Of a stretch of DNA of 13,036 bases, positions 1-13,036 are shown in pieces. This DNA is from a virus. How positions within the stretch are numbered: position 1 is the stretch's first letter; each line of letters starts with the position of its first letter. The stretch lies in IMG/VR virus record IMGVR_UViG_3300045988_138655, one strand, 5' to 3'. A program made the translations under genes and the position numbers. Below the pieces are notes generated by a model, which was given only the letters and a program-made list of their open reading frames with translations, had not been told where the DNA came from and did no database searches.

Positions 1-43
1 GGCAAGACAAACCTGTGAACAAATTATTAACATTTCCCCAATC

Positions 44-76
44 TGTTCATATTTTGTTCATATTTTGTTCATAATT
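44..76. repeat. Three tandem 11-bp repeats (TGTTCATATTT x2, TGTTCATAATT) near the left terminus
   Basis: Read directly at 44-54, 55-65 and 66-76. An inverted copy of the TGTTCA core (TGAACA) lies at 15-20. Confidence 0.9.
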
Positions 77-157
77 GCAAAACTGGCATGATTCTTGCTA
101 GGCAACTATAACAATAAATTGTCTGACAATATAGCACAAAGTCCGACAGTTATTCTG

Positions 158-186
158 TTGAAATCTTAGTTCATATGGAGTATAAT
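158..186 (+). promoter_or_regulatory. SigA-type promoter in the left ITR, firing inward
   Basis: TTGAAA (158-163), 17-nt spacer, TATAAT (181-186). It is followed by GGAGG (224-228), 8 nt before the ATG at 237. Confidence 0.6.
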
Positions 187-236
187 TAAACCATCAAATA
201 AATCAAGCAACAGCCATAAGGTAGGAGGAACACTAA

Positions 237-611
237 ATGAAATCAAAATACAAAAAAATCAAGTACACGAACACCGGAGTAAAAGCCCCGGTAGTGACTT
301 GTTTAAAATCCAACCCAAATCTTAGTAGATCAGACATGATAGAATTAAATTATCCAGAAATAAAAATCATTGTAAGAAGAGTTTTTCGAAAAACTATGTA
401 CAATCGTGCTGAGTCTCTCATTGGTATCATGTATGATAATTTTACTAATTCATTTTTTGTTCATGATACTATTAATGATGCAAGAGTTGTATGTGAGAAT
501 CTTTATTTGATCATTAAAAAACCAGAATTAGATTTTCGCATAACAACTAGGGAATACGATAGCATTTATGAGTATATGAAGGGAGTATTATACAATGCCA
601 AGGAATCCTAA
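237..611 (+). CDS. Hypothetical early protein, 124 aa (left ITR copy)
   Basis: ORF with a GGAGG SD and the ITR promoter. It is identical to 12426..12800(-). No family was recognised. The N-terminus is basic (KSKYKKIKY). Confidence 0.7.
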   Translation: MKSKYKKIKYTNTGVKAPVVTCLKSNPNLSRSDMIELNYPEIKIIVRRVFRKTMYNRAESLIGIMYDNFTNSFFVHDTINDARVVCENLYLIIKKPELDFRITTREYDSIYEYMKGVLYNAKES

Positions 612-870
612 AATCCCAACCACGTCGAGGGGTCTGAACGTCAACCCAAACATGCTAACTACGCTGGAGACTCTACAGCTCCGCAGGCAGCTTGCAAAAC
701 GTCTGAATCAGCGTATGCGCAGATTAAAAGCAAAAGGTTTTGATTCAGAGGTTGGAGGAGCGTACGCAGACTATCAGGACTGGTCTGTAGCTTATCATGA
801 GGTATTTAAAGAGAAAAAATTCTATAAAGCTACTCAGAAAGTTTCTGATAGATGCAAAATAATACGATAG
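595..870 (+). CDS. Chimeric 91-aa ORF: first 62 aa of the terminal-protein candidate fused to 29 unrelated residues (truncated paralogue or pseudogene)
   Basis: Residues 1-62 are identical to those of the 206-aa ORF because they lie inside the ITR. The sequences diverge exactly at the ITR boundary (781/782). The stop codon (868-870) sits inside the terminator stem. Whether the product is functional is unknown. Confidence 0.5.
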   Translation: MPRNPKIPTTSRGLNVNPNMLTTLETLQLRRQLAKRLNQRMRRLKAKGFDSEVGGAYADYQDWSVAYHEVFKEKKFYKATQKVSDRCKIIR

Positions 871-896
871 CCCAGCGGATGCTGGGCTATCGTATT
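861..896. terminator. Bidirectional rho-independent terminator
   Basis: A perfect 15-16 bp stem (atacgatagcccagc / gctgggctatcgtat) with loop ggat. It is followed by TTTTCT on the plus strand and ATTTTG on the minus strand. It lies between the convergent 91-aa ORF and the last late gene. Confidence 0.85.
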
Positions 897-901
897 TTCT
901 A

Positions 902-2158
902 TCACATTGTAATAGAACCTCTATGAATCTGCACCTGTGTAACCTCTGTCAAAGTTCGGTAATTGTGCTTATCATCTGAAATATCGTATAAGCTCAAATA
1001 AATATGCCTACCTCGGAAATTAAGCTGTGCGGGGATATGGTAGAAGTCACTGCCAGACTTAACGATCACACTTGTTGGATAGCATGTGTAGCCGTTATTG
1101 TCACCAATAAAGGACGTTGAGAAAATACGCCCCAAACGGTACTCAGTGCCATCACATGTAAGTGTCCCGCTGTTTGGTAAGCAAACATAGTTGCCCCAGA
1201 TCAGAGTGCTTGTATTTTCATTGTATGAGCTGACAAAAGTCCAGCTTGAACCTGGTGTAGCTGTAAAGTCGCCAGCTTCAAAGTTTGCAGTAACTTCATA
1301 AAATGATGGACTGCACGATCCCGTTTCAACAGCGGTAGCAAGATAGCTTGCAAGTCTCTCCTGTCCTGCTGTGTTTGGATGGAAGCCATCAGAACCCAGA
1401 AAGCCATCAGCATGGAGAATATAGTCTGACCCTGTCAGATACCGCCAATTCTTTCTCTGAGTGTTATAAACAGACTTTGCGATCTTTAATCTATTTTGCA
1501 CTGTTGGGTCGTCCGTCCGATCTACCGACCATGCAACCATAGCGGCAAATACTTTTGCGTTCGGAAATCTTACTTCTGCTACTCCCATAAAAGCATTGAT
1601 TGCATTCTCAATGTCTGAATAAAAACCAAACTCATTAAAGCCACCTACAACAAGAATCTGTTTGACCTCATTAGAAGCAGGTACGGCATTTAAAAGCATA
1701 AGAAATGAGTTGTTACTAGTAGAAAAAGAAGCCCCACCATTTGCGGAGATTGTGACATCCTCAAGCCCGGTGTACTTGATAAAGTTAGTAGTCCAAGGAG
1801 TAATATTGCCATCCGGAGTATACCCAACGGTGTAGCTGTCTCCGATGATGATGGTTTTCCCGGAATGATCAAAAAGTCCGTCTCTTTTCTGTAACTTTGT
1901 GATTTCACTTGTATTTGTTCCAACCTGCCCTTTTAATGGTTCAATCTGTTCGTTGATTACTTTTGTAGTAGCATCATTTACTACTTTTCCGATCTCTCCA
2001 TCATCCAAACTTTTCTGAATTGCATCATCAATCATGGTCTGGGCTGTGTCTTTTATATGCGTCCATTCCTCATGATCTTTGTCAGCCTGTTTGCCAACTT
2101 TAAGCAGCCAGTCTAAGTTCATGTCTTGTGATCCACTATGTGGGTATCTGAAAAACAT
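902..2158 (-). CDS. Tail fibre / appendage (receptor-binding) protein with a central SGNH/GDSL esterase domain, 418 aa
   Basis: It is the last gene of the late operon, after the collar genes. SGNH blocks are readable: IIIGDSYTVGY (GDS at about residues 106-108), ANGGASF, VGGFNEFG (GxN) and SDGFHPN (DxxH). The N-terminal ~95 aa are charged and helical-looking, and the C-terminal ~130 aa look beta-rich. The SD AAGGAGGA lies 7 nt upstream of the ATG. Confidence 0.6.
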   Translation of the reverse strand: MFFRYPHSGSQDMNLDWLLKVGKQADKDHEEWTHIKDTAQTMIDDAIQKSLDDGEIGKVVNDATTKVINEQIEPLKGQVGTNTSEITKLQKRDGLFDHSGKTIIIGDSYTVGYTPDGNITPWTTNFIKYTGLEDVTISANGGASFSTSNNSFLMLLNAVPASNEVKQILVVGGFNEFGFYSDIENAINAFMGVAEVRFPNAKVFAAMVAWSVDRTDDPTVQNRLKIAKSVYNTQRKNWRYLTGSDYILHADGFLGSDGFHPNTAGQERLASYLATAVETGSCSPSFYEVTANFEAGDFTATPGSSWTFVSSYNENTSTLIWGNYVCLPNSGTLTCDGTEYRLGRIFSTSFIGDNNGYTCYPTSVIVKSGSDFYHIPAQLNFRGRHIYLSLYDISDDKHNYRTLTEVTQVQIHRGSITM

Positions 2159-2171
2159 AATTTATTCCTCC

Positions 2172-2861
2172 TTAATAAGTTAATAAAAGCAGATCCTGTG
2201 CAAATAGTCCGGTGCAATAATCAATAAAGCTTTGTTTCCGTAACTCAAGCTCTGACTGAATCATCTGCTGTGAAGTAGTAACTCCAATGTTGCCATGAAT
2301 ACGCCCGGAGTGCTTATTCTGTCCGGTCTCCCGGCTTGTTTCACCCTTTCCATATTCAAACGTATTTTTGTTTTCCCCAGAACTTTGTACTTTTGTGCTA
2401 GCCCCATACTCAGTAGTTGTTTTTTCGTTGGGGCTATAGTTTGCATCATTAAAAGCACTGACCTCATTTATAGCTGTATCTGCCCCAGAGTTTGTCGTAG
2501 TGGTTCCCTGTCCAGCTTCTGCCCTGTTTATGTCCTGTCCGGAACTTTGACTTGTTCGTGTCATATCCGGGCTGTCTGTCCATTCTTCATGGCGGTCATA
2601 GTTTTCAATCGGTTCATAGTTAAGTAAGTCTAACACGTTATAAACCTTGTCAATGCTACTTTTCCATTTCCTGCTCCATGCAGGAATAGCACTCTCATGC
2701 ATAAACTCCCAGTCCGGATATAAAGGCTCGCAGTCTCCATAGGACAGAAGCAAACTGTCGATAAAGTTCTGTCTATCTGCTGATTCTGGAAATTCCATTT
2801 TATCAAATAAATTTTCATTCCATTCATAAAGCCCTGCTATCGTTATCTTATAAAGTCCCAT
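2172..2861 (-). CDS. Lower collar (phi29 gp11-position) protein candidate, 229 aa
   Basis: It lies immediately downstream of the portal gene and overlaps it by 14 nt. GGAGGTG lies 7 nt before the ATG. It has a long S/T/G/N-rich central segment. The functional call rests on position only. Confidence 0.4.
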   Translation of the reverse strand: MGLYKITIAGLYEWNENLFDKMEFPESADRQNFIDSLLLSYGDCEPLYPDWEFMHESAIPAWSRKWKSSIDKVYNVLDLLNYEPIENYDRHEEWTDSPDMTRTSQSSGQDINRAEAGQGTTTTNSGADTAINEVSAFNDANYSPNEKTTTEYGASTKVQSSGENKNTFEYGKGETSRETGQNKHSGRIHGNIGVTTSQQMIQSELELRKQSFIDYCTGLFAQDLLLLTY

Positions 2862-3768
2862 ATGATTTCACCTCCGCAGTTTCATAGCTTCTGATCTTGA
2901 TGGACAAGTTCATCTCAGGGTAAAGCCTGTTTGTCATGTCAACTCCCGCTTGCATGGTTTCAAGCCAAGTAGTTAATCGTGTCACGGCTTCTGCATCATT
3001 TTTGCTTGTCTCAAGCACATTCAGACGTTCTTTTTTGTCAGATCCGACAGATGGAATACCGACCTCTGTGTCAAACTGATCCAGAAGCTTTTCAAAAACC
3101 TCAATCAGCTCCGGTGCAATAAAGTTTTGCTTCAGATCCTTGTTGAAGCTTTCCCATGCATCCTGCTTGCTTCCTTGTCTGTCTTCCGTTTTTATTGATA
3201 CGTCAAAAGCTTCAACTGGGTTACCAGCTTGTATGCTGTCATAGATTTTTTTCAGTGTCTGAGCTGCTGTTTTGTTTTTCGCTGCAATCAGAAAAGCAAG
3301 TTTTGAATTAAACACATTCATGTCAAAAGCAGACGCAACAAGTGCCAGTTTGTAGCTGTAAAAGCCAATGATATCTCCAATCCCACAAAAAGTCGGTCTG
3401 ATATAGATGACAGAACAGTCTTTCCCGATCTCCATATCCTCTATGTCAATTGTAGCGTTGCTTGCATACGTGTGTATGCTTGCTGTCGTTGGTTTAAAGT
3501 AAATATTGTATCCTGTCAGCATTGGATACTGACCAATCAGTCCATAAAGATCTGTCTTTGTGATGCAAATATACCCTCCAAAAAGTAGGCAGTATTTGAA
3601 ATAGTCAATATCAATGCTTCCGTTGTATTTTATGTCAAGAACAGAGCATACACGCTCATAAAGCATCCGGTCAAACGTATCAGTATATAAGCTGTCGACT
3701 TTTATTCCTGATGGCTGGAAGTAATTTGTGCATATGTTGATCTTGTCAAAATTCATAGGTACCCACAT
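2848..3768 (-). CDS. Portal / upper collar connector, phi29 gp10-like, 306 aa
   Basis: Its size is close to phi29 gp10 (309 aa). By-eye similarity to gp10 as recalled: KKERLNVLETSKNDAEA vs KKERMVTDEVSSNDEQ, and NRLYPEMNLSIKIR vs NELYGLNVKVKFR. It follows the tail-knob gene, as in phi29. Confidence 0.75.
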   Translation of the reverse strand: MWVPMNFDKINICTNYFQPSGIKVDSLYTDTFDRMLYERVCSVLDIKYNGSIDIDYFKYCLLFGGYICITKTDLYGLIGQYPMLTGYNIYFKPTTASIHTYASNATIDIEDMEIGKDCSVIYIRPTFCGIGDIIGFYSYKLALVASAFDMNVFNSKLAFLIAAKNKTAAQTLKKIYDSIQAGNPVEAFDVSIKTEDRQGSKQDAWESFNKDLKQNFIAPELIEVFEKLLDQFDTEVGIPSVGSDKKERLNVLETSKNDAEAVTRLTTWLETMQAGVDMTNRLYPEMNLSIKIRSYETAEVKSYGTL

Positions 3769-3783
3769 GTTTTCATCCCTCCT

Positions 3784-5130
3784 TTATTCAAAATAAAATC
3801 CATTATTCAAGTAACTGCTAACCTGCTCTTGATCCCCCTCAAATCCTGCAATCTGGATAGAAGCATCCCGGCACTTTACAAAACCACTCAGTGCAGAAAT
3901 GGTGCTTACAGTACCATCTACATAACCCTCACTTGCTCCATCTGGATCAAGACTTGTACAAGCATATGAATTGAACTCTAAAATCTGGTTATTGAGTATA
4001 TTCGATATATTTCCAATAGTCCCTAGCATAGATACTTCTGGAGCGGTAATGCTTCTTCCTGCTTCTATTCCTGATGAAATTCCCTGTGCAATGTTTCCTT
4101 GTAATCCAGCACCAACAAGGCTAACAGCTGAGGTAGTAAGTTGTGCTATGTTTGTGCTCGCATAACCGATTTGCACTGGAACTGACAGCTGGAATTGGTA
4201 AGATGCAAAAACAACTTTCTTTGATTGCAAAAATACATTACATAGTCCACTTGTGGCATCAAATTGATACAGTGCATTTACACTTTCATCTATTTTATAA
4301 GGGTTGAGACCAACCACTCCGATAAAAGGAAGCTTTATAAAATAGTTTGAAAATGATGAAGTATAGTAGCGAAAATCCGTGATAGCATAAAGCGGATTAT
4401 CAAAAGCAAAAGAATATGAAAAATTTACGACTGTATCCTCATCAATTCTTTTTGCTACTACACCACTGTCCCAAAAACCTAGCTGTATTGCTTCATCATT
4501 ACTATTTTTAAAAGCACTTTCAACAAAAGGAACCCATTTTAAATCAAGAATATATTTAAAGGGGTCAAACATTAATTTTGTAATGGCGTCCGTTATCACA
4601 TCAGCAAAGTTTGATTCTGTATACATATAGTCGAGCAAGTCATTTAATTGAGTTCCGTTTATATAATAGGAGGCAACTCCACTCTTTGAAACTACTCTTA
4701 TAATATATTGCTGTGAATAAGTTCTTGTCATTATTTTCTCTTTATGAGTCACATTTCTTGTGGATAGCATCCAGTCATTTGTCGGAATATACATGCTGTC
4801 GTCTGCAAGCGTAGTCTGTTTACTTGATCGTTCAATAAAGCATGTATAGTTGCCAATCTCTGTCCGGTATGTTGCCAGCACATCCTCACTCGCTGAGATC
4901 TCAACCATGTCATTATTTAAAGACACTGTTGTGCTGATAAAATAGTAATGGTCAGCCCATTTCAGATAGTTGTATTGCAATGCATTATCCAATGATAATT
5001 TTAATTTGAACACTGGATTTTGAAAAGTGGTATTTGATTTTAAAAAACAGGGAACTACGGTTCCCTGTTCTGTTGGTCTTTTTGTGCTGTTTTTTCGTTT
5101 GGAAAAATGATATAAAATAATCTCTGTCAT
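3784..5130 (-). CDS. Tail knob (distal tube) protein, phi29 gp9-like, 448 aa
   Basis: By-eye similarity to recalled phi29 gp9: YYFISTTVSLNNDMVEISASEDVLATY vs WFYAFVTELEF...VHFEIDVLQTW. There is a Gly/Ala/Ser-rich hydrophobic loop (SAVSLVGAGLQGNIAQGISSGIEAG). The C-terminus DQEQVSSYLNNGFYFE resembles NDLQEIRTIFDNGITLW. It precedes the portal gene, as gene 9 precedes gene 10. Confidence 0.65.
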   Translation of the reverse strand: MTEIILYHFSKRKNSTKRPTEQGTVVPCFLKSNTTFQNPVFKLKLSLDNALQYNYLKWADHYYFISTTVSLNNDMVEISASEDVLATYRTEIGNYTCFIERSSKQTTLADDSMYIPTNDWMLSTRNVTHKEKIMTRTYSQQYIIRVVSKSGVASYYINGTQLNDLLDYMYTESNFADVITDAITKLMFDPFKYILDLKWVPFVESAFKNSNDEAIQLGFWDSGVVAKRIDEDTVVNFSYSFAFDNPLYAITDFRYYTSSFSNYFIKLPFIGVVGLNPYKIDESVNALYQFDATSGLCNVFLQSKKVVFASYQFQLSVPVQIGYASTNIAQLTTSAVSLVGAGLQGNIAQGISSGIEAGRSITAPEVSMLGTIGNISNILNNQILEFNSYACTSLDPDGASEGYVDGTVSTISALSGFVKCRDASIQIAGFEGDQEQVSSYLNNGFYFE

Positions 5131-5777
5131 CTTAAGTATACCTCACCTTTTGCTGTGATTGCACAAATCCAGCCAGATGGAATCCTGACCCACGCTGCTC
5201 CGGCAGCATCCTTTTTTATATCTTTTACTGTGACTACGGTTCCTTTTTTCAGGCACCCATCAGAATAAGCGTGTTTCATACCATCCCTTGTCAGCTGTGC
5301 ATACTTTTTGATCTGACCCCACACACTGTATCGTACATGTAAGTGATCCACCATAGTAGTATAGGTTCTACCTATTTCATAAGATGGGCTTTTTTCATCC
5401 CATACTCTGCGGATGCAGGATAAGTCAGACCTACGACTTACAAGGCTTTTGACTACACCAATACCGGGATTATCGACATCGTTTTTTCTGCTACCTCTAC
5501 TTTCAATCATATATCCGTATCCTACGAAAATAGCACAATGAGTTACCGGAGTACCGAAAAAAAGAAAATCACCTACTTTTTGCTCTCCAATCGGAACCCT
5601 TGTTCCAAGCTTTGAATAGCTTGATGCCGTCAGTCTTCCAACATTTGACCCTGCTTTTTTCTGGATCCAGTAAAGCAATCCAGAACAGTCAAGTCCCTGT
5701 GTTGGGGTCGAACCACCCCACACATATCTAACTCCAAGTAATTCCTTTGCATTTTCAACAAGTTCGTTCGCTGTCAT
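5127..5777 (-). CDS. Peptidoglycan hydrolase: N-terminal NlpC/P60 cysteine endopeptidase plus C-terminal SH3b-like wall-binding domain, 216 aa
   Basis: It has the NlpC/P60 signature GVRYVWGGSTPTQGLDCSGLLYW (catalytic Cys) and a downstream His in VTHCAIFVGYGYMIES. The C-terminal ~80 aa (AAWVRIPSGWICAITAKGEVYL) look SH3b-like. Its stop overlaps the tail-knob start (ATGA). Confidence 0.8.
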   Translation of the reverse strand: MTANELVENAKELLGVRYVWGGSTPTQGLDCSGLLYWIQKKAGSNVGRLTASSYSKLGTRVPIGEQKVGDFLFFGTPVTHCAIFVGYGYMIESRGSRKNDVDNPGIGVVKSLVSRRSDLSCIRRVWDEKSPSYEIGRTYTTMVDHLHVRYSVWGQIKKYAQLTRDGMKHAYSDGCLKKGTVVTVKDIKKDAAGAAWVRIPSGWICAITAKGEVYLR

Positions 5778-5784
5778 TTTACAC

Positions 5785-6009
5785 CTACTTTCCTAAGTGT
5801 TCAATTAATGAGTTCATTTTTTCAATCGCAACAGTGTTGTTTTTAATCACTTCAGAAAGCGTATCAACTTCATCTTTATGCTCTTCATTGAGTTTGTCAA
5901 CTCTTGCGTTTGTCTGATCGTACATGTATTTCACAAAGTATGCCATCACACAACAACATACGATTGGAAAAGCATAGTTGCCCAAAATAGTTAAGAATGT
6001 ATCCATCAT
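5785..6009 (-). CDS. Holin candidate, BhlA/UviB-like architecture, 74 aa
   Basis: It has a single N-terminal TM segment (FLTILGNYAFPIVCCCVMAYFV) followed by a charged coiled-coil tail. It lies directly upstream of the lysin gene. The size and layout match BhlA/UviB-type holins. Confidence 0.55.
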   Translation of the reverse strand: MMDTFLTILGNYAFPIVCCCVMAYFVKYMYDQTNARVDKLNEEHKDEVDTLSEVIKNNTVAIEKMNSLIEHLGK

Positions 6010-6326
6010 ATTGTAACCTCCGTAAAATAATTCTCATTAATTTGCATGCTGGGTACTGTATCAATTAATACTTTCACATACGTATCATCTTTTGCGTTAT
6101 TTACGAGTTTAAAGTGTGATGCATCGGGGAAACCGTAATACGATTCAAATTTTAATTCGTACAATGCAGTGTATACACTTGTATTTATTAATGGAATAGT
6201 GTCATACTGCAAAACTACACCAGTAGCTGCCACATTCATTAAAAATCTTCTCACCGAAACAGATTCAAAAGGAAGTGAAACTACTATTGAACCACCAGCA
6301 GGTACCTTTATGTTTGCTGCTAACAT
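6006..6326 (-). CDS. Hypothetical protein, 106 aa, translationally coupled to the capsid gene (possible minor head protein)
   Basis: It shares a TAATG overlap with the upstream capsid gene and an ATGA overlap with the holin gene. It looks beta-rich. No family was recognised. Confidence 0.5.
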   Translation of the reverse strand: MLAANIKVPAGGSIVVSLPFESVSVRRFLMNVAATGVVLQYDTIPLINTSVYTALYELKFESYYGFPDASHFKLVNNAKDDTYVKVLIDTVPSMQINENYFTEVTI

Positions 6327-7522
6327 TATACTCCCTCCCCCAGCACGTAAAGAATCGCATTGTGCGTAAAGTTATTCCATGCATTAAAACGGTAATGGTC
6401 ATAGATGTTGTAGTAGCCACCTGCCGCATTGAATGGGGTAGATGCTGAGTACATCCACTGATTATTTACGCCCATCGCTCTACGATCGTAAAGTAAACCA
6501 AGTACATATGGCAGGCTTACAGCTGTAGTGGCTGTCTTTGAAACTCCGTTAGCATCAATAATGTTAGGTGTGATATTTATAGCCGGGCTGTCGAACTCCT
6601 GCCAGCCATTTACAAGCTCCATGTCGGCAATTTTCAAATACTTATCATTAAATACTTCCGGGAGTACCTGTGTTTCGCTGTCAACCCAAAAATCAGTGTA
6701 CATAAGCAACTTTTGATTCTCTGGTCTTGTGAATCGCAAGATGTTCTTTCCAGTCAGATTCATATGATACTTTGTGGTTCTGTCCTGCATCTTCTTTGAA
6801 TCTTTCTTAACTCTTGATACTACAAAAGCCATGAAATCTTTATGATGTTCAGGACTTAAAAGCAGCTTACGTGTGAGTTTTGTTCCATACTCTGTATTGT
6901 AAGCTTCTACCAGATCCACCTCATTTGTTCCAAGGGATGAGATACCAGCCATGAAGTTAAGCACCGTCAGTCTGCGTTTTGCTTCATTTCTGGATTCGAT
7001 ATCATTGTAATAAGCTATCATATAGCTACTTACAAACATCAGGAATTCTGCTTCGTTTGAGAAAGCAAGTGCCAGCTGATCCCGGAATCGTGTGATATGC
7101 GACTGTAGAACTTTACTGCCATAGAATTTCAACTCCACCAGTTTTGGAGCATTGATCTTGTACATATCAACCGACTGTCCATCAGCAAGCTGGTTTTCAC
7201 TCAAGTCTGTATTCCAATCCTGGGATGCTTCTGCGTCCAATGGAAGTGAAATGATCTCACGTGTGATAGCACCCCAACGTTCGTTATCCTCAATGATTGA
7301 CCGGAACACTCCGGATCTGTATTTTTCCTTTTCAAAATAGGTTTTTCCACACCACTGACTGAGTGCTTTCAATGTAGGTTCTACACCTGTCCGCAACATG
7401 GTTTCCCCGACAGATACAAAAGAGCTTGTGTCTACTGCTTTGATATTCTCCTGTCCGGTAGCCATCTTGTACAGATCATTAATGATCAAATAGGCATCCT
7501 GCACAACTAAACTGTTTGCCAT
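6326..7522 (-). CDS. Major capsid protein candidate, 398 aa
   Basis: It is the largest head-module ORF and lies directly downstream of the scaffold-like gene, as gene 8 follows gene 7 in phi29. It has a strong SD (AAGGAGGTG). No motif-level proof is available by eye. Confidence 0.6.
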   Translation of the reverse strand: MANSLVVQDAYLIINDLYKMATGQENIKAVDTSSFVSVGETMLRTGVEPTLKALSQWCGKTYFEKEKYRSGVFRSIIEDNERWGAITREIISLPLDAEASQDWNTDLSENQLADGQSVDMYKINAPKLVELKFYGSKVLQSHITRFRDQLALAFSNEAEFLMFVSSYMIAYYNDIESRNEAKRRLTVLNFMAGISSLGTNEVDLVEAYNTEYGTKLTRKLLLSPEHHKDFMAFVVSRVKKDSKKMQDRTTKYHMNLTGKNILRFTRPENQKLLMYTDFWVDSETQVLPEVFNDKYLKIADMELVNGWQEFDSPAINITPNIIDANGVSKTATTAVSLPYVLGLLYDRRAMGVNNQWMYSASTPFNAAGGYYNIYDHYRFNAWNNFTHNAILYVLGEGV

Positions 7523-7535
7523 TATTTACACCTCC

Positions 7536-7871
7536 TTAGTTCATAAGTTTCATTAGATCTTCTGCCACATTGTCGGAAGTACGCTGAGTAGATCCAGTTT
7601 TTCCGGATGCAGACAGGTTCCCCGCCTGTAACGTAGCAGTCAAAGTATTAATCGCTGTCAGCAGAGCTGCATTGGTTGCATCCTGTCCCGTCTGTGCTGT
7701 CATATTCAGTGAACTATTTGCAGGCTTCTGTCCCAGATTCTGAATCTGTTCTGTAGCCTGTGGGCTTGTGATCTGATTAAGCCCAGTCATGTTCTGTGCG
7801 TTCAGAATCCCAATGATCTCATTTTTTGAGAATCCAAGTTTACCAAGTTCTAAAATCTGATCTACTTTCAT
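7536..7871 (-). CDS. Scaffolding protein candidate, 111 aa
   Basis: It is a small, helical or low-complexity Q/T/N/A-rich protein immediately upstream of the capsid gene, the position of phi29 gp7 (98 aa). The SD GGAG lies upstream of the ATG at 7871. Confidence 0.5.
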   Translation of the reverse strand: MKVDQILELGKLGFSKNEIIGILNAQNMTGLNQITSPQATEQIQNLGQKPANSSLNMTAQTGQDATNAALLTAINTLTATLQAGNLSASGKTGSTQRTSDNVAEDLMKLMN

Positions 7872-7896
7872 TTTATCTCCTTTTCTGCCGGAAGTG

Positions 7897-7978
7897 AAAA
7901 ATTAAAATAGGTCAGAGCTTCCGGGTTATCATCCCATGGCATCCGCTTCCGGCGGTCGATGTAGCCACTCTGACCTAG
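7897..7978 (-). ncRNA. Candidate structured RNA: pRNA-like small RNA or late-operon leader/attenuator
   Basis: On the minus strand a 10-bp helix (7977-7968 pairs with 7917-7908) encloses about 50 GC-rich nt. The interior includes the hairpin CCGC-cggaa-GCGG. The helix is followed by UUUUAAUUUUU (7907-7897). The element starts at the predicted +1 of the upstream promoter. It is the most GC-rich noncoding patch in an AT-rich genome. Its function is inferred only. Confidence 0.3.
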
Positions 7979-7982
7979 CTCT

Positions 7983-8011
7983 AATATACCTGTTTCAAAA
8001 TAGTTTGTCAA
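7983..8011 (-). promoter_or_regulatory. Near-consensus SigA-type promoter (candidate late promoter)
   Basis: Minus strand: TTGACA (8011-8006), 17-nt spacer (aactattttgaaacagg), TATATT (7988-7983). It overlaps the last codons and the stop of the ATPase gene. The predicted start is near 7976. Confidence 0.6.
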
Positions 8012-9041
8012 TATAAAATTTTACAGAAATATTCTGGTAGCTGATTCTATTTGTCAGACGATAGCTGTCAATCCAGCTATAAAAACATCTAAACTGATCT
8101 TTTCCATGCTGGTTGTCTTCAAAAACATCTCTACAAGTGCCAGAAATATGATCAGAAACATACAAGTGCGCTTTTGATTTATGTTCGTAAATGGCCACTT
8201 TTCCAATCACACAAATTAGCTTGTATTGCCTGATGTCCTCTGATCTGACAGCCGAGACGTCATCATATGCAAATTCATTCGATAAAGCCATCTTTGCAAA
8301 GTCTGTGTCACCCGATAAAGCACGATACAACGCGGTATCTTTCTTCTTTTCTGAAATCGGGGAATCATTAATCAAAAGCAAGATGATTCCTCTCTCTTTT
8401 AGCATGGAAAACTCCTGCTTGTACTTTTTCATTCGTTCCAAGATTGGCAGCAATCCAAAAGCTTGCACAATTGCATTATCTAATGTGTTTGAGTTGGAAG
8501 CAAGCCACCAGCGGAATGGCTTCTTTCCTTGCAATTCTCTGTTTGCCGATATGGTCTCAACAGCATTCAGAAAAGCATCATCTTCCCCACTGATTGACTT
8601 AGCTATCTTCTCCGGGATGAACTCATCATAAATCCCCTCAGAGAAATCAGATCCAGAGAATCCGCGGTTGTTATGCATTGAGGTGAGACAGAATGCTTCA
8701 CCTCTATATACTTCCTCTTCCTCAACCTGCTCTACAATCTTAATACGTCCGTATTCACCTCTGGGCTTTTCAAAATGAAAAAACCTGTTCATATCTTTGT
8801 TTATGTCCAGCCATGGATCAAACTCCGGAAGAAATACTTTTTTCAGTTGCTCTTTTGTACGTCTCATATAGATGATCTTCTCATTTATTGAAAAAACATC
8901 ATTAATGAAGTGTTGGAAAATTCCATATGTTTTTCCGGTTCTTCTTGCTCCAATAATGAATATGAAATTAATTTTATTTTTATCGGCAAGCTGCGCAATC
9001 CTTGGAACATCCAGCCAACCATTTCTGTCATAGATATTCAT
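7995..9041 (-). CDS. DNA packaging (encapsidation) ATPase, phi29 gp16-like, 348 aa
   Basis: Walker A NFIFIIGARRTGKTYG resembles recalled phi29 gp16 NFVIGARGIGKSY. IYMRRT resembles IYVRRY. Walker B region IYDEFIPEK resembles VFDEFIREK. The start is moved to the ATG at 9041, which has GGAGGAGG 8 nt upstream and a TAATG overlap with the preceding gene. The 31-codon upstream extension in the ORF track overlaps the SpoVG-like gene and has no SD. Confidence 0.85.
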   Translation of the reverse strand: MNIYDRNGWLDVPRIAQLADKNKINFIFIIGARRTGKTYGIFQHFINDVFSINEKIIYMRRTKEQLKKVFLPEFDPWLDINKDMNRFFHFEKPRGEYGRIKIVEQVEEEEVYRGEAFCLTSMHNNRGFSGSDFSEGIYDEFIPEKIAKSISGEDDAFLNAVETISANRELQGKKPFRWWLASNSNTLDNAIVQAFGLLPILERMKKYKQEFSMLKERGIILLLINDSPISEKKKDTALYRALSGDTDFAKMALSNEFAYDDVSAVRSEDIRQYKLICVIGKVAIYEHKSKAHLYVSDHISGTCRDVFEDNQHGKDQFRCFYSWIDSYRLTNRISYQNISVKFYIDKLF

Positions 9042-9340
9042 TATCGAAATCCTCCTCCGGAGGATGCAGGCTGTGAAGTCTGATTGCACTCGTTGTATTT
9101 TTTGATGCAAGCATCCTGCAAAAGCTGTGTCCATTCTTTATCGAGTGAATAGACTGAATTATAGTATTTTCCATCTTTTCCTTTTGTGCTGGGGAATGAC
9201 AGGAAAAGCCCGTCTTTACCCTCAACCAGTGTAAGTCCTTTAATTACAAGGGTACCATCCAGTTCGAGATCAACAAAAGCTTTTGTTTTTGATGTACCAG
9301 AATAAGGTTTGCAATTAATTTTTACGTTTGATTTTAACAT
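9041..9340 (-). CDS. SpoVG-fold nucleic-acid-binding protein, 99 aa
   Basis: It aligns by eye with recalled B. subtilis SpoVG: KAFVDLELDGTLVIKGLTLVEGKDGLFLSFPSTKGKDGKYY...QDACIKKY vs [41 protein letters not shown]...QDAVLNEY. The SD AAGGAG lies upstream of the ATG at 9340. Confidence 0.7.
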   Translation of the reverse strand: MLKSNVKINCKPYSGTSKTKAFVDLELDGTLVIKGLTLVEGKDGLFLSFPSTKGKDGKYYNSVYSLDKEWTQLLQDACIKKYNECNQTSQPASSGGGFR

Positions 9341-9341
9341 A

Positions 9342-9479: not shown

Positions 9480-9492
9480 TTTTCTCACCTCC

Positions 9493-9606
9493 TTAATCAC
9501 CTAACAGCATCCATACTTGACAGCTTGCAAACATGCAAGCAAAAGTGACGCATGTCCAGAAAAGGGTACTTAAATCTTCCTTATTTTCTTTCCAGAATTT
9601 TTTCAA
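9493..9606 (-). CDS. Small hypothetical membrane peptide, 37 aa, TTG start (below the ORF-track cutoff)
   Basis: My translation is MKKFWKENKEDLSTLFWTCVTFACMFASCQVWMLLGD, with one hydrophobic segment. GGAGGTG lies about 9 nt upstream of the TTG at 9606. The stop TAA is embedded in the next SD (TAAGGAGGTG). Caveat: the 7-bp hairpin GCTTGCA-n4-TGCAAGC (9523-9540) lies inside it, so the region could instead be noncoding. Confidence 0.35.
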   Translation of the reverse strand: MKKFWKENKEDLSTLFWTCVTFACMFASCQVWMLLGD

Positions 9607-9681
9607 AGTTTTTTACACCTCCTGTCTATATATTGTAACTTATTTATGTTACAAAACTATTACAGTTTTATAACATTTATT

Positions 9682-11805
9682 CTAACTATATACGGTATCT
9701 TCCATTTCAAACGGCAACGGCAGTCCTGTTTCCTTGTCATATGGAATCGTGTGATCTAACTCGTACTCTGTATCACTCAATCGGATAGCACATCCATACT
9801 CAATCTTGCACCCGTCAACAGTCACTTCATTGATTCCATCATGGAAAATATACTCCGTCTTCATTTTCCATTTGGGATCCTGCCAATCGTTCGATCTGCG
9901 GTAGTTCCTGCGGAATGTCAAATCATTTTTGAAAACAAATCCTTTTCGAAAGTTTGTGATATCATCATCCAAGCAATATATGCCCTCTTTTGGTACTCCT
10001 GCAACCGTCAGATGCAAGGATGCATCTTTTTTCAGTCGGTAGCAATACCGCTTGCTACCCATTGTTATAAATTCACTGTATATTCCATCAAACTCACCAA
10101 TTCCTAACCGGAAAGTTTTTTCTTTATATTCTACCACTCCAATGTTTCTCTTTTGCGACATTTCAATGATTGATTGATTAAACTCATCCAATTTATCATG
10201 ATCCCAGTCTGTACCCTTTACAGAATCTGTGTCTGAGTATAACCACCTCCGGCAGCATGAACCCAGCCGGAACAGAAAAGCCTGTGCATAGGCTGTAATC
10301 CATACCCCCCACTGGTAGGGCATGAAGCTGTTCTTATTCCGATAGAACTTTTCAAGCTCTTTTTCCCTGTCCTCTGGTTCTTTTGCTTCCCACTCTCCTG
10401 ACTCCATAAGCTCTGTACATAAGATTTGAATGATTCTCTGAACCGTCATGCCGTACATGCCATTTAGCTCCCCCTTTGATATCATGTAGTTTGCTTCGTC
10501 CAAACCTTTAAGGGTGCATTTTTTAAAAAACAATTCCATTAAGTAATCAGTGAACCACTCTGGCAAGTAGTCTTTTGTAGCTCTCATGACTTTAGACACA
10601 TCAGCCCAGTCATAATCATAACTTGACAGGATAACTTGTAAATCTGGATCCGTAAAGGGATAAATGACAAGATCAGCATTAACGATCTTTCCATTATCCA
10701 GATTATCATGAAACTGTTCTTTTTTGCTTTTTGCTTCCGGAAAAACACATACTTTTGCTTTTGAAAAAGCCAACGGGGGCATGGGACAGTCTTTTTTCAA
10801 TCTCAGATTCTTAAGTCTTATATAGCCGGAAAAAGCATAATCTTCTTTCAGTTCCATAATGTCTTTTAATGTGATATTGTTAGTATAACAAAACCTAGTC
10901 ATTGGAAACTTACAATAGCACATCCAAGCAATATAGGAACTTACAAAATCATAGCACTCAACAGGTTCTTTTATTAATTGATTCACGTAATACCTATTGG
11001 CATGGGTATAGCCACCATGATAGCAATCAAGCATTTGATCGTATTGCTCCAACGTCAGAGCCATTTTCTCAAATTGCTTTCTCCATTTCTTGTCTTTTCT
11101 TGCTCTCCTGCGGGCGTTCGTCCGGATAAAGCCCGTATTGGTCAGCGGACAGTTCGCCACGTTAAATCCTCGTTGGTCTATGTATTTACGGAGTGCTTTG
11201 CAAAGACTGATCGTATCCGTACAGGCATAGGCTATTTCTTTTGCTGTACGTGGACTTGCCGGAGTTCGAAACTTCTTATAGTCCCATGTTCCGACAGCTT
11301 TCTCAGTTGTTCCCATGTCTTTACAAAGCTTCTCAAGTGATCTTTGTGTCAAGATGAGACTATCACGGAACTCAATGCCTTGTCCTGTCCATTTCATAAA
11401 AATATATTTATGTGTCTTAGCAGCCAGTGATTTATCAGGATTCCCCCACTTTTGGAAAAAATGGTTACGAAGAAAAACATAGTCATATGGAAAGTTATGC
11501 ACATAAAAGCGTACAAGGTGGCTATCGTCAGCATGTAAAGTTGTGCAAATCCTGTCGATCGTATCAATCAGATCAGAAACATGGTTGCCGTAAATACAAC
11601 AATCATCCTCTATCGTGATTGTCCAATCCGTGACAAAGCCAATGTTTTTGTTAAGATAGACAAAAGTTTCCGTATCAACAGTTATTATTTTTTCATAGAC
11701 ACCTAGATAATGACCTGCATTGGATCTCCGGATAAAATCACCATTGAATAGTCGCATATAATCATAGTTTTTAAAATAAATAACTGGATATCCTGCGACT
11801 ACCAT
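9682..11805 (-). CDS. Family B DNA polymerase, protein-primed type, 707 aa
   Basis: All motifs are readable: ExoI TVDTETF (D44/E46 by my count), ExoII HNFPYDYVF (N104/D108), ExoIII YACTDT (Y193/D197), motif A YDFVSSYIAW (D286), motif B KGELNGMYG (K444), motif C YSDTDS (residues 523-528, verified at nt 10239-10222) and KxY GSKRYCY (K585/Y587). It lies adjacent to a terminal-protein candidate in a genome with ITRs. Confidence 0.9.
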   Translation of the reverse strand: MVVAGYPVIYFKNYDYMRLFNGDFIRRSNAGHYLGVYEKIITVDTETFVYLNKNIGFVTDWTITIEDDCCIYGNHVSDLIDTIDRICTTLHADDSHLVRFYVHNFPYDYVFLRNHFFQKWGNPDKSLAAKTHKYIFMKWTGQGIEFRDSLILTQRSLEKLCKDMGTTEKAVGTWDYKKFRTPASPRTAKEIAYACTDTISLCKALRKYIDQRGFNVANCPLTNTGFIRTNARRRARKDKKWRKQFEKMALTLEQYDQMLDCYHGGYTHANRYYVNQLIKEPVECYDFVSSYIAWMCYCKFPMTRFCYTNNITLKDIMELKEDYAFSGYIRLKNLRLKKDCPMPPLAFSKAKVCVFPEAKSKKEQFHDNLDNGKIVNADLVIYPFTDPDLQVILSSYDYDWADVSKVMRATKDYLPEWFTDYLMELFFKKCTLKGLDEANYMISKGELNGMYGMTVQRIIQILCTELMESGEWEAKEPEDREKELEKFYRNKNSFMPYQWGVWITAYAQAFLFRLGSCCRRWLYSDTDSVKGTDWDHDKLDEFNQSIIEMSQKRNIGVVEYKEKTFRLGIGEFDGIYSEFITMGSKRYCYRLKKDASLHLTVAGVPKEGIYCLDDDITNFRKGFVFKNDLTFRRNYRRSNDWQDPKWKMKTEYIFHDGINEVTVDGCKIEYGCAIRLSDTEYELDHTIPYDKETGLPLPFEMEDTVYS

Positions 11806-11821
11806 ACTTTACCCCCCCTTG

Positions 11822-12442
11822 CTATGGTCTATATTTCAAAGCTTCTGCTTCGCCAGAAAAACCAAGTTGCTTTGCTATTGCATCGGCAGCATCTGGATCA
11901 GTTCTCTCCCGGAATTTTTCCAGATCTTTTATGATCTCAGAAACCGTAGAATCATCCAGTTTATGACTGATGATTCTCATTGTCTGTTTACTGTCATAAA
12001 ATCGTTGCATCCACTTCCATACCTCAGATTTGAAAAATAATTTCATTTCTTCTTTTGACTTGAAATTGATTCCATATTCAGTGCTGAGGGTTTTTTGGCG
12101 TTGATCTATGATCTCTCTCCAGCCCTGAACAGTGCTGCTCTTTTCTTTCAATATCTTTTGGATGGCTTTCACCTGAGCTCGCGGTAATCCCTTGTATTTT
12201 TCATTTTCCAAGTTTTCCGGGATTGTTGATCTACCCGGGAAAAATCTTGCAAGCAAGTCCTGATAGTCTGCGTACGCTCCTCCAACCTCTGAATCAAAAC
12301 CTTTTGCTTTTAATCTGCGCATACGCTGATTCAGACGTTTTGCAAGCTGCCTGCGGAGCTGTAGAGTCTCCAGCGTAGTTAGCATGTTTGGGTTGACGTT
12401 CAGACCCCTCGACGTGGTTGGGATTTTAGGATTCCTTGGCAT
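11822..12442 (-). CDS. Terminal protein (priming protein) candidate, 206 aa
   Basis: It lies immediately upstream of the polymerase gene, as gene 3 precedes gene 2 in phi29. The basic N-terminus MPRNPKIPTT...QLAKRLNQRMRRLKAKGFD resembles recalled phi29 TP MARSPRIRIK...RLVKNTKAKIARTKKKYGVD. The priming residue cannot be identified by eye. Codons 1-62 lie inside the right ITR. Confidence 0.6.
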   Translation of the reverse strand: MPRNPKIPTTSRGLNVNPNMLTTLETLQLRRQLAKRLNQRMRRLKAKGFDSEVGGAYADYQDLLARFFPGRSTIPENLENEKYKGLPRAQVKAIQKILKEKSSTVQGWREIIDQRQKTLSTEYGINFKSKEEMKLFFKSEVWKWMQRFYDSKQTMRIISHKLDDSTVSEIIKDLEKFRERTDPDAADAIAKQLGFSGEAEALKYRP

Positions 12443-12800
12443 TGTATAATACTCCCTTCATATACTCATAAATGCTATCGTATTCCCTAGTTGTTATGCG
12501 AAAATCTAATTCTGGTTTTTTAATGATCAAATAAAGATTCTCACATACAACTCTTGCATCATTAATAGTATCATGAACAAAAAATGAATTAGTAAAATTA
12601 TCATACATGATACCAATGAGAGACTCAGCACGATTGTACATAGTTTTTCGAAAAACTCTTCTTACAATGATTTTTATTTCTGGATAATTTAATTCTATCA
12701 TGTCTGATCTACTAAGATTTGGGTTGGATTTTAAACAAGTCACTACCGGGGCTTTTACTCCGGTGTTCGTGTACTTGATTTTTTTGTATTTTGATTTCAT
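12426..12800 (-). CDS. Hypothetical early protein, 124 aa (right ITR copy, first gene of the replication operon)
   Basis: It is identical to 237..611(+). It has the same promoter and SD, and it overlaps the terminal-protein candidate start by 17 nt. Confidence 0.7.
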   Translation of the reverse strand: MKSKYKKIKYTNTGVKAPVVTCLKSNPNLSRSDMIELNYPEIKIIVRRVFRKTMYNRAESLIGIMYDNFTNSFFVHDTINDARVVCENLYLIIKKPELDFRITTREYDSIYEYMKGVLYNAKES

Positions 12801-12850
12801 TTAGTGTTCCTCCTACCTTATGGCTGTTGCTTGATTTATTTGATGGTTTA

Positions 12851-12879
12851 ATTATACTCCATATGAACTAAGATTTCAA
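12851..12879 (-). promoter_or_regulatory. SigA-type early promoter in the right ITR, driving the 124-aa / terminal protein / polymerase operon
   Basis: ITR mirror of 158-186: TTGAAA-17-TATAAT on the minus strand. Confidence 0.6.
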
Positions 12880-12960
12880 CAGAATAACTGTCGGACTTTG
12901 TGCTATATTGTCAGACAATTTATTGTTATAGTTGCCTAGCAAGAATCATGCCAGTTTTGC

Positions 12961-12993
12961 AATTATGAACAAAATATGAACAAAATATGAACA
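12961..12993. repeat. Mirror copy of the 11-bp tandem repeats near the right terminus
   Basis: ITR counterpart of 44-76: aattatgaaca aaatatgaaca aaatatgaaca. Confidence 0.9.
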
Positions 12994-13036
12994 GATTGGG
13001 GAAATGTTAATAATTTGTTCACAGGTTTGTCTTGCC

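What the first reader, a model, noticed from the sequence alone, without database searches (positions are those of the whole stretch)
1..13036. Whole window is a complete, unusually small protein-primed tailed-phage genome
The ITRs reach both window ends, and a full phi29-type gene set lies between them. There are about 16 distinct genes in 12,255 bp of unique sequence. As I recall, characterised phi29-like phages are about 16-21 kb, and only Mycoplasma phage P1 (about 11.7 kb) is smaller among tailed phages. This genome would therefore sit near the lower size limit. Several phi29 functions were not recognisable here: SSB (gp5), DBP (gp6), the gp4 regulator, the head fibre, a gp12-type appendage and a second lysin. 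It is effectively a minimal parts list for this lineage.
Basis: partly seen in the sequence, partly recalled or inferred. Interest (0 to 1): 0.7.

Follow-up and report, generated by a model that had tools for sequence, protein, structure and literature searches.

The report
Small gut phi29-like phage genome
The window is a nearly complete 13-kb linear genome of an uncultured, protein-primed phi29-like phage that is common in human gut metagenomes; its size is normal for its lineage, and its only unusual feature is a terminal repeat about three times the usual length.

Summary
A perfect 781-nt inverted terminal repeat (ITR) reaches both window ends, and a phi29-type gene set lies between the arms: protein-priming PolB, gp16-type ATPase, Phi29_MCP, gp10 connector, tail knob, probable lower collar, holin and lysin.

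- **Completeness:** the genome is gene-complete, but about 25 contig ends of relatives start 5'-AAACTTGGCAAG. The window therefore probably lacks 6 nt at each end.
- **Size:** it is not unusual. More than 50 IMG/VR contigs with 94-98% identical PolB are 11-13.8 kb. GenBank MT836115.1 (12,876 bp) is 88% identical. Cultured relatives are smaller: Amedibacillus phages at 12.2-12.3 kb and astrithr-like phages at 11.5-11.9 kb. A 2024 review lists 2,115 phi29-like sequences.
- **"Missing" functions:** some are present as analogues, namely a SpoVG-like nucleic-acid-binding protein and an SGNH esterase in the gp12 position.

The distinctive feature is the ITR. Relatives have about 230 nt, ending at the ribosome-binding site. 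Here the ITR also copies the first early gene and 62 codons of the putative terminal-protein gene into a variable left-end slot. The left junction recurs in two other assemblies. This is a new member of a known kind, of low interest.

The parts
1..781 (.). Left arm of the inverted terminal repeat. About 1-236 matches the ITR of relatives. 237-781 is an extension found only in this strain and, in diverged form, in L004.
   Evidence: 781 nt, 100%. (ITRs of relatives are typically 225-255 nt and end at the ribosome-binding site).
12256..13036 (.). Right arm of the inverted terminal repeat.
1..157 (.). Non-coding terminal region and presumed replication origin. It lacks the outermost 6 nt (AAACTT). 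It holds three tandem 11-nt units, TGTTCATATTT, at 44-76.
   Evidence: Conserved as far as relatives with 69% PolB identity (L053, L054). The origin role is inferred.
158..186 (+). Early promoter-like site inside the ITR (TTGAAA-17-TATAAT). Its mirror copy lies at 12879-12851 on the minus strand.
   Evidence: 11 of 12 matches. Relatives carry TTGACA-17-TATAAT at the same place.
237..611 (+). Left copy of a 124-aa early ORF of unknown function (lineage-restricted).
   Evidence: No family match. Only 5 clusters among 1.84 billion representative proteins.
595..870 (+). 91-aa hybrid ORF. Residues 1-62 are the N-terminus of the putative terminal protein. Residues 63-91 are the C-terminus of the ancestral left-end ORF.
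   Evidence: The exact protein occurs on other assemblies.
861..896 (.). 16-bp-stem hairpin where the left-end ORFs meet the long minus-strand operon; reads as a two-way terminator.
   Evidence: Conserved in relatives. The Rfam 'BSnc120' hit here is only this hairpin.
902..2158 (-). 418-aa SGNH/GDSL hydrolase in the gp12 (appendage) position. Presumed receptor-binding or surface-polysaccharide esterase.
   Evidence: Lipase_GDSL_2, 31.4 bits, just below the 32.9 cut-off. (phrog_31573, 1e-25).. GDSY and DGFHP motifs are visible. The role is inferred from position.
2172..2861 (-). 229-aa probable lower collar / tail tube protein (gp11-like).
   Evidence: The family profile's best PDB hit is phi29 gp11 (6qz9), E 0.0037. 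hhalign probability 73%. 27% identity to the syntenic AD70P2 protein. Foldseek found nothing.
2848..3768 (-). 306-aa connector / upper collar (gp10).
   Evidence: PF05352, 52.4 bits against a 25.6 cut-off. (phrog_2038).
3784..5130 (-). 448-aa tail knob (gp9-like).
   Evidence: it hits the same two PHROGs as phi29 gp9. (the top 7 Foldseek hits are phi29 gp9, E 2.4e-4, followed by the C1 and Andhra tail knobs; the model is reliable only for residues 1-88)..
5127..5777 (-). 216-aa NlpC/P60 endolysin with a C-terminal binding domain.
   Evidence: PF00877, 57.9 bits..
5785..6009 (-). 74-aa holin-like membrane protein.
   Evidence: weak holin PHROG match, 8.5e-4. It lies directly before the lysin.
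6006..6326 (-). 106-aa protein of unknown function, directly after the capsid gene.
   Evidence: No family match.
6326..7522 (-). 398-aa major capsid protein of phi29 type.
   Evidence: PF25622, 63 bits against a 27 cut-off.
7536..7871 (-). 111-aa Q/T/N-rich protein. Scaffold candidate by position only.
   Evidence: Inference from gene order (phi29 gp7 precedes gp8).
7995..9041 (-). 348-aa gp16-type DNA-packaging ATPase. The mechanical ORF list starts it at 9134; gene callers use 9041.
   Evidence: PF05894, 55.1 bits against a 25 cut-off. (348-aa gene call).
9041..9340 (-). 99-aa SpoVG-like protein. Candidate nucleic-acid-binding protein.
   Evidence: PF04026, 60.1 bits against a 29.6 cut-off.. 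SpoVG-like genes are known in C. perfringens phi29-like phages (PMC3362512).
9342..9500 (-). Small ORF of 45-52 aa, function unknown.
9493..9606 (-). Conserved 37-aa hydrophobic ORF. It starts with TTG here and with ATG in relatives.
   Evidence: ribosome-binding site, mostly third-position changes.
9682..11805 (-). 707-aa protein-priming family B DNA polymerase.
   Evidence: PF03175, 41.1 bits against a 25.8 cut-off. (phrog_1907, 1e-50). (aligns with phi29 gp2 through YxGG, Kx3NSxYG-like and YxDTDS).
11822..12442 (-). 206-aa putative terminal protein. Its first 62 codons lie inside the ITR.
   Evidence: It lies directly upstream of PolB on the same strand, as phi29 gp3 does. 26% identity, E 3e-6, to the equivalent AD70P2 ORF. 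The family has a conserved NQRxxRLxxxG motif. No similarity to phi29 TP.
12426..12800 (-). Right copy of the 124-aa early ORF, the first gene of the long leftward operon.
   Evidence: This position is conserved in most relatives.

Best explanation
The window is the essentially complete linear dsDNA genome of an uncultured phi29-like podophage from the human gut. It probably lacks 6 nt (AAACTT) at each end, which would make the true length about 13,048 bp.

Inferred mechanism, by analogy with phi29:
- The 206-aa protein encoded just upstream of PolB primes DNA synthesis at both ends and stays attached to the 5' ends.
- The template 3'-TTTGAA end allows internal initiation followed by sliding back.
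- The roughly 230-nt core ITR holds the origin, 11-nt repeats, an early sigma-70-type promoter and a ribosome-binding site.
- The right-end promoter drives one long leftward operon. Its order is: 124-aa ORF, terminal protein, PolB, small ORFs, SpoVG-like protein, gp16 ATPase, scaffold candidate, capsid, 106-aa ORF, holin, lysin, tail knob, connector, lower collar, SGNH tail protein.
- The left-end promoter drives a short, highly variable accessory slot that ends at a shared hairpin terminator.

In this strain the ITR has grown to 781 nt. A copy of the right-end 124-aa gene plus 62 codons of the terminal-protein gene replaced most of the left slot and fused in frame to the tail of the old left-end ORF.

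The genome size is typical for the lineage and is not a record.
For: - **ITR:** 781 nt, 100% identical, at both window ends.
- **Hallmark genes above curated Pfam cut-offs:** PolB, gp16, MCP and connector.
- **Other tail genes:** tail knob and lower collar.
- **Gene order:** collinear with the cultured Amedibacillus phage AD70P2, and all four proteins tested are homologous.
- **Physical ends:** 25 contig ends begin AAACTTGGCAAG, and one has an adapter remnant joined to that terminus. phi29 ends in AAAGTA.
- **Free-standing replicon:** 65 IMG/VR loci and 637 homologues of the tail knob. The longest contig among the listed clusters is 13.6 kb there, and the longest contig in any list is 14.4 kb. 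Contigs carrying the exact PolB are all under 20 kb. No close hit in 185,579 representative genomes.
- **ITR extension is real:** ENA contig k127_95548 equals w655-12382 at 100%. That is the unique region plus exactly k = 127 nt of each arm, as expected where a de Bruijn graph breaks at a true inverted repeat. A contig from another sample (ERZ502019) spans the left junction 781/782. L004 has the same kind of left-end duplicate with a different junction, and its two copies have diverged to 79%.
- **Human gut source:**
Against: - No reads are available. Coverage at the ends, twofold coverage over the ITR, and the linkage of the left arm to the outermost 216 nt are not directly shown.
- The terminal-protein assignment rests on position and on conservation within the clade. 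It shows no similarity to phi29 TP.
- No pRNA was found, so packaging may differ from phi29.
- The tail-knob model is poor overall (pLDDT 38.9).
- The lower collar has only marginal statistical support.
- The missing 6 nt are inferred from relatives at 92% ANI or less.
- The ENA contig with the 127-nt overlaps could come from the same sample as the window.
- The 646-nt contig has very low coverage (0.73x) and carries an 11-nt deletion.
Confidence: 0.88

Rival explanations
1. The 781-nt ITR is an assembly or amplification artefact. On this view the real genome has the clade-typical ITR of about 230 nt and a different left-end ORF, and 237-781 was wrongly copied from the right end.
For: All but one of 54 relatives have the 124-aa ORF at the right end only. 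ITR lengths of contigs in this clade scatter widely, from 55 to 1430 nt, and some contigs are clearly chimeric at their ends: L011, L017, L049. PMC9610469 warns about ITR artefacts in gut virome contigs.
Against: The left junction 781/782 is present in two other assemblies made with other assemblers, one from a different sample. The junction is in frame and joins sequences with almost no shared k-mer. L004 carries an independent event of the same kind whose two copies have diverged to 79%, which an assembler cannot produce.
Confidence: 0.06
2. One reading: this is an exceptional, near-minimal tailed-phage genome at the lower size limit of the lineage.
For: 13 kb and about 16-18 genes is small compared with phi29 (19,282 bp, 27 genes). 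No gp4, gp5, gp6, head-fibre or second-lysin homologue was found.
Against: Cultured and RefSeq phages are smaller: astrithr 11,569 bp, Phanie 11,885 bp, DU_PP_III 11,504 bp, AD70P3 12,228 bp, and AD70P2 12,320 bp with 15 CDS. Within its own clade, L045 (12,431), L022 (12,655) and L026 (12,901) lack the left-end ORFs altogether. The review reports clusters of 11-14 kb.
Confidence: 0.04
3. The element is part of a larger replicon, either a prophage or a phage-plasmid, and the window is only a fragment.
For: Some phi29-like sequences are phage-plasmids of 30 kb or more. A few related contigs carry foreign sequence at an end (L011, L017).
Against: No related contig exceeds 14.4 kb across hundreds of assemblies. 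Many contigs end at the identical nucleotide. No integrase, partition or repressor genes were found. There is no close hit in bacterial genomes. The foreign pieces are short, GC-rich and unique to single contigs.
Confidence: 0.02

Closest known systems
Uncultured human-gut phage cluster: GenBank MT836115.1 (12,876 bp, Mexico, unannotated), over 50 IMG/VR UViGs, and ENA contigs
   Same: Same gene content and order. PolB is 94-98% identical at the protein level. ANI is 82-92% over 90-100% of the window. One ENA contig is 100% identical over 11.7 kb. The terminal sequence and ITR core are the same.
   Different: Relatives have an ITR of about 230 nt ending at the ribosome-binding site. Their left slot holds other small ORFs or none. 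Only the window (with its identical contigs) and L004 duplicate the right-end early genes there. The best IMG/VR ANI is about 92%, below the usual 95% species line.
Amedibacillus phages AD70P2 and AD70P3 (cultured; filed under Guelinviridae in GenBank)
   Same: Genomes of 12.2-12.3 kb. In the annotated AD70P2, nearly all genes are on one strand and the order is the same: TP-like ORF, PolB, small ORFs, packaging ATPase, capsid, tail knob-like, portal, lower collar-like, tail protein. Homology was detected for PolB (30%), MCP (31%), TP candidate (26%), tail knob (25%) and lower collar (27%).
   Different: Only about 25-31% protein identity. AD70P2 has no holin or lysin between the capsid and tail knob genes, and a different 578-aa distal tail protein. 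The review gives its GC content as 26.7%, against 35-43% in 1-kb windows here.
Bacillus phage phi29 (Salasmaviridae)
   Same: Protein-priming PolB with the same catalytic motifs. The TP gene position is directly upstream of PolB. It has a gp16-type ATPase and the same local order gp9, gp10, gp11, gp12-position protein. The A-rich terminus is similar: AAAGTA in phi29, AAACTT here.
   Different: phi29 is 19.3 kb with 27 genes, a 6-bp ITR and a pRNA. It has gp4, gp5, gp6, a head fibre and two lysins, and its early and late genes diverge. Here no pRNA was found, the ITR is 781 nt, there is essentially one transcription direction, and PolB is only 24% identical.
Clostridium perfringens podophages PhiCPV4, PhiZP2 and PhiCP7R (PMC3362512)
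   Same: phi29-like phages that also encode a SpoVG-like protein of about 100 aa and a long PolB (727 aa there, 707 aa here).
   Different: Their genomes are 18 kb with 26-28 ORFs and ITRs of only 25-30 bp. Direct sequence comparison was not done here.
Streptococcus phage Cp-1 and Mycoplasma phage P1 (from my own knowledge, not tested here)
   Same: Protein-primed small podophages with ITRs of hundreds of base pairs (about 236 bp in Cp-1). P1 is about 11.7 kb.
   Different: As far as I recall their ITRs do not contain a complete gene. They did not appear among the PolB or MCP hits.

Membership tests
phi29-like protein-primed podophages (hallmark set p2, p3, p8, p9, p10, p11, p16; PMC11476376) | Protein-priming type family B DNA polymerase | tested here: met
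   PF03175, 41.1 bits against a 25.8 cut-off. phrog_1907, 1e-50. Motif-level alignment with phi29 gp2.
phi29-like protein-primed podophages | Terminal protein gene next to PolB | tested here: inconclusive
   A 206-aa ORF lies directly upstream on the same strand and is conserved in AD70P2 (E 3e-6). It has a conserved N-terminal motif. It shows no similarity to phi29 TP or to any PDB chain.
phi29-like protein-primed podophages | Protein covalently bound to the 5' ends of virion DNA | not testable with these tools
   This needs virion DNA and protease-dependence or gel-shift assays.
phi29-like protein-primed podophages | Inverted terminal repeats at true physical ends, with a reiterated terminal base | tested here: met
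   ITR present. 25 ends of related contigs stop at AAACTT, and one shows an adapter junction. The window itself lacks those 6 nt.
phi29-like protein-primed podophages | phi29-type major capsid protein | tested here: met
   PF25622, 63 bits against a 27 cut-off.
phi29-like protein-primed podophages | gp10-type connector | tested here: met
   PF05352, 52.4 bits against a 25.6 cut-off.
phi29-like protein-primed podophages | gp9-type tail knob | tested here: met
   Moderate support from three lines. It hits the same PHROGs as phi29 gp9 (3.2e-4 and 6.5e-3). The top 7 Foldseek hits are phi29 gp9, followed by the C1 and Andhra knobs, although the model's mean pLDDT is 38.9. It also sits directly before the connector.
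phi29-like protein-primed podophages | gp11-type lower collar | tested here: inconclusive
   The profile's best PDB hit is phi29 gp11, E 0.0037. hhalign probability is 73% over 49 columns. Foldseek gave no match. The position after the connector fits.
phi29-like protein-primed podophages | gp16-type packaging ATPase without a nuclease domain | tested here: met
   PF05894, 55.1 bits against a 25 cut-off.
Salasmaviridae (phi29 in the strict sense) | Prohead RNA (pRNA) gene | tested here: not met
   No Rfam hit at E up to 1. The longest non-coding stretch is the 236 nt before the first ORF in each ITR arm (157 nt of it outside the promoter), and it has no conserved fold. The stretch after PolB is coding.
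Salasmaviridae (phi29 in the strict sense) | Very short ITR (6-8 bp) and close protein similarity to phi29 | tested here: not met
   The ITR is 781 nt. PolB is 24% identical. phi29 is absent from the MCP tblastn hits.
Guelinviridae | Placement within the family by ICTV criteria (shared core proteins, phylogeny) | not tested
   The nearest cultured phages, AD70P2 and AD70P3, are filed there, but PolB and MCP are only 30-31% identical. No phylogeny was built.

The most novel reading that the evidence does not exclude
In this lineage the ITR boundary moves. The repeat captures whatever lies next to it and so reshuffles an early accessory slot driven by the ITR promoter. In relatives this slot holds cargo including an AcrIC5-like anti-CRISPR ORF.

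In the window this process doubled the dose of a lineage-restricted 124-aa early gene. It also created a separately expressed protein consisting of the conserved N-terminal module of the terminal protein. That protein could modulate replication initiation or genome localisation. The hybrid would then be functional, not a by-product.
Probability: 0.15. Interest if true: 0.4.

Novelty: new member of a known kind. Interest (0 to 1): 0.2.

Why it matters
Mainly as a correction. Small size and a reduced gene set do not make this genome special, because phi29-like phages of 11-14 kb are abundant, catalogued and partly cultured.

Three points have modest value:
- The shared terminus AAACTT gives a precise physical end for a very common but undescribed gut phage group.
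- The clade shows how terminal repeats of protein-primed genomes expand and contract across strains. This matters for completeness calls based on ITRs in viromes.
- The left-end slot behind the ITR promoter looks like an anti-defence cargo site.

Tried and rejected
- **pRNA:** Rfam at E up to 1 gave only a terminator hairpin and two chance hits. There are no tRNAs. RNAalifold on 29 ITR sequences gave weak energies (-12.5 and -4.3) and no convincing structure. The gap after PolB proved to be a conserved 37-aa ORF plus about 70 nt.
- **Terminal protein:** phmmer and a family profile against PDB, and hhalign against phi29 gp3, showed no relationship.
- **Lower collar:** the AlphaFold model (pLDDT 66.7) had no Foldseek match in PDB.
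- **Single-sequence PDB searches** for the 448-, 229- and 418-aa proteins found nothing useful.
- **Defence-system models (PADLOC):** no match for nine small or unassigned proteins.
- **Is the ancestral left-end 91-aa ORF an old paralogue of the terminal protein?** Rejected (BLASTP E 0.37).
- **Vibrio phage K58 g2 (10,390 bp) as a smaller genome:** not used. The record starts inside the terminase gene and ends in a truncated PolB, so it looks incomplete.
- **Host assignment:** only a general Gram-positive signal, from the lysin hits and the SpoVG-like gene. The single genome-contig hit is a distant phage contig binned with a Eubacteriales MAG.
Full report
**1. Observation**

The window has a perfect inverted repeat: arms 1-781 and 12256-13036 are 100% complementary and touch both ends.

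Nearly all long ORFs lie on the minus strand, and GC skew is negative throughout.

These proteins pass curated Pfam cut-offs:
- DNA_pol_B_2 (707 aa)
- Podovirus_Gp16
- Phi29_MCP
- Phage_connector (gp10)
- NLPC_P60
- SpoVG

. PHROGs agree.

The polymerase aligns with phi29 gp2 through the YxGG, Kx3NSxYG-like and YxDTDS motifs. DxE, NFxYD and YxxxD exonuclease motifs are visible in the sequence.

**2. The remaining hallmark genes**

- **Tail knob.** phi29 gp9 belongs to phrog_2248 and also hits phrog_16615. The window's 448-aa protein hits the same two families weakly and in the matching N-terminal region. Its AlphaFold model is poor overall (pLDDT 38.9; only residues 1-88 are confident). Even so, the top seven Foldseek matches in PDB are phi29 gp9, followed by the tail knobs of phages C1 and Andhra. 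I accept it as a tail knob.
- **Lower collar.** A profile built from the 229-aa protein and its homologues finds phi29 gp11 as the best PDB sequence, E 0.0037. hhalign gives 73% probability. Foldseek finds nothing. The assignment is probable but not proven.
- **Terminal protein.** The 206-aa ORF directly upstream of PolB occupies the terminal-protein position. It is homologous to the ORF at the same position in a cultured relative. It shows no similarity to phi29 TP. The assignment is an inference.
- **pRNA.** None was found, and there is almost no non-coding space for one.

**3. Is it complete and free-standing?**

Sixty-five IMG/VR loci encode a related PolB. More than 50 are 94-98% identical at the protein level, and all of those contigs are 11-13.8 kb.

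The tail knob has 637 homologues. The listed clusters never sit on a contig longer than 13.6 kb. The largest contig seen in any list is 14.4 kb.

The exact PolB occurs on human-gut ENA contigs, all under 20 kb. Representative genomes of 185,579 bacterial and archaeal species contain no close copy.

Twenty-five ends of 16 related contigs begin with the same bases, 5'-AAACTTGGCAAG. Two relatives with 69% PolB identity begin AAACTAGGCAAGG. In L025 the last ten bases of an Illumina adapter are joined directly to AAACTT. This marks a real DNA end.

The window begins at GGCAAG, so it probably lacks six bases on each side. The true length would be about 13,048 bp. The A-run resembles phi29's AAAGTA and would allow the sliding-back step of protein-primed initiation. 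That last point is inference.

**4. Is it unusually small?**

No. The evidence:
- GenBank holds MT836115.1, 12,876 bp from human faeces, 88.5% identical over 86% of the window.
- Cultured or RefSeq phages with related PolB are smaller:

| Phage | Genome (bp) |
|---|---|
| DU_PP_III | 11,504 |
| astrithr | 11,569 |
| Phanie | 11,885 |
| Amedibacillus AD70P3 | 12,228 |
| Amedibacillus AD70P2 | 12,320 |

.
- AD70P2 has 15 CDS in the same order as the window. Four further proteins are homologous.
- A 2024 review collected 2,115 phi29-like sequences of 7.9-34.6 kb and describes clusters of 11-14 kb.
- Within the window's own clade, some genomes lack the left-end ORFs entirely and are shorter (L045, L022, L026).

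The nearest IMG/VR genomes have about 92% ANI. The window may therefore be a separate species-level unit within a well-sampled group.

**5. The 'missing' functions**

- A SpoVG-like protein (60 bits) is a plausible nucleic-acid-binding protein. SpoVG-like genes were already reported in C. perfringens phi29-like phages.
- The 418-aa protein in the gp12 position has an SGNH/GDSL fold signal (31.4 bits, just under the cut-off) with GDSY and DGFHP motifs. It is probably the receptor-binding esterase.
- One holin-lysin pair is present.

**6. What is actually distinctive: the ITR**

In relatives the ITR runs from the terminus to the ribosome-binding site and is typically 225-255 nt. It contains one to three TGTTCATATTT units and a TTGACA-17-TATAAT promoter. 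The first gene differs at the two ends.

The right end starts the long operon. The left end carries a variable slot with one of the following:
- nothing;
- one ORF of about 91 aa;
- two or three small ORFs.

One of these small ORFs matches the anti-CRISPR family AcrIC5 above its Pfam cut-off.

In the window, 237-781 is an exact copy of the right-end 124-aa ORF plus the first 62 codons of the terminal-protein gene. It is fused in frame to the last 29 codons of the ancestral left ORF (WSVAYHEVFK...).

I tested whether this is an assembly artefact:
- An ENA MEGAHIT contig equals w655-12382 at 100%. That is the unique region plus exactly 127 nt (the k-mer size in its name) of each arm. This is the expected pattern where a graph breaks at a genuine inverted repeat, and the contig contains the left junction.
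- A SPAdes contig from another sample (ERZ502019) spans 217-873, including the junction.
- L004 has the same kind of duplication with a different junction (after QLAK), and its copies have diverged to 79%.

I conclude that the extension is real and that such events recur. Read-level proof is still missing.

**7. Verdict**

The reading 'complete protein-primed phi29-like phage genome' is supported. The claims of unusual smallness and of a unique minimal gene set are not.

This is a new member of a known and heavily sampled kind. The extended ITR and the hybrid terminal-protein fragment are a minor variant worth a note, not a new category.

Noticed in passing
Relatives, window orientation: L041 297-485, L050 240-428, L025 279-473; also L030, L039, L020: A 62-aa acidic ORF in the left-end slot behind the ITR promoter matches Pfam AcrIC5 (anti-CRISPR), E 3.3e-8, 34 bits against a 27 cut-off. 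It is absent from the window.
   Followed up: partly
L046 (IMGVR_UViG_3300045988_080276), both ends: This contig has a 1430-nt perfect ITR. It duplicates the left end at the right end, including about 870 nt of the SGNH tail-protein gene. That is an ITR extension in the opposite direction, or an artefact.
   Followed up: no
L013 1-760 and L016 (locus orientation; the window's right end): An extra gene with a PAPS_reduct (PP-loop) domain lies upstream of the 124-aa ORF (PF01507, 33 bits against a 22.5 cut-off). The contigs stop inside it, so these relatives are larger than 13.3 kb.
   Followed up: partly
L017 1-285; L011 last 36 nt; L049 first 33 nt: Foreign sequence at contig ends: 285 nt of about 60% GC joined inside the ITR (L017), 36 nt of GC-rich sequence outside the terminus (L011), and a poly-A run (L049). 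These are probably chimeric assemblies.
   Followed up: partly
window 44-76 (mirror copy 12961-12993): Three tandem 11-nt units, TGTTCATATTT / TGTTCATAATT, lie in the ITR. Copy number varies from 1 to 3 among relatives. They may be protein-binding sites at the origin.
   Followed up: no
L072 (ENA ERZ502019 NODE_7931), equal to window 217-873: In this sample the left copy of the 124-aa ORF carries an 11-nt deletion (window 430-440) that breaks the frame. Coverage is only 0.73x, so it could be an error.
   Followed up: no
window 9493-9606 (-): A conserved 37-aa hydrophobic ORF that gene callers missed. It starts with TTG here and ATG in relatives, has a GGAGG site, and varies mainly at third codon positions.
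   Followed up: partly
window 237-611 (+) and 12426-12800 (-): The duplicated 124-aa early protein is restricted to this lineage. Only 5 clusters match among 1.84 billion representative proteins, and no family library matches it.
   Followed up: yes
window 7872-7994 and 9607-9681 (-): These short gaps before the scaffold/capsid genes and after PolB carry strong promoter-like sites: TTGACA-17-TATATT at 8011-7983, TTGACA-16-TAGAAT at 8071-8044, and a conserved TTGTAACATAAATAA block. They may be middle or late promoters.
   Followed up: no
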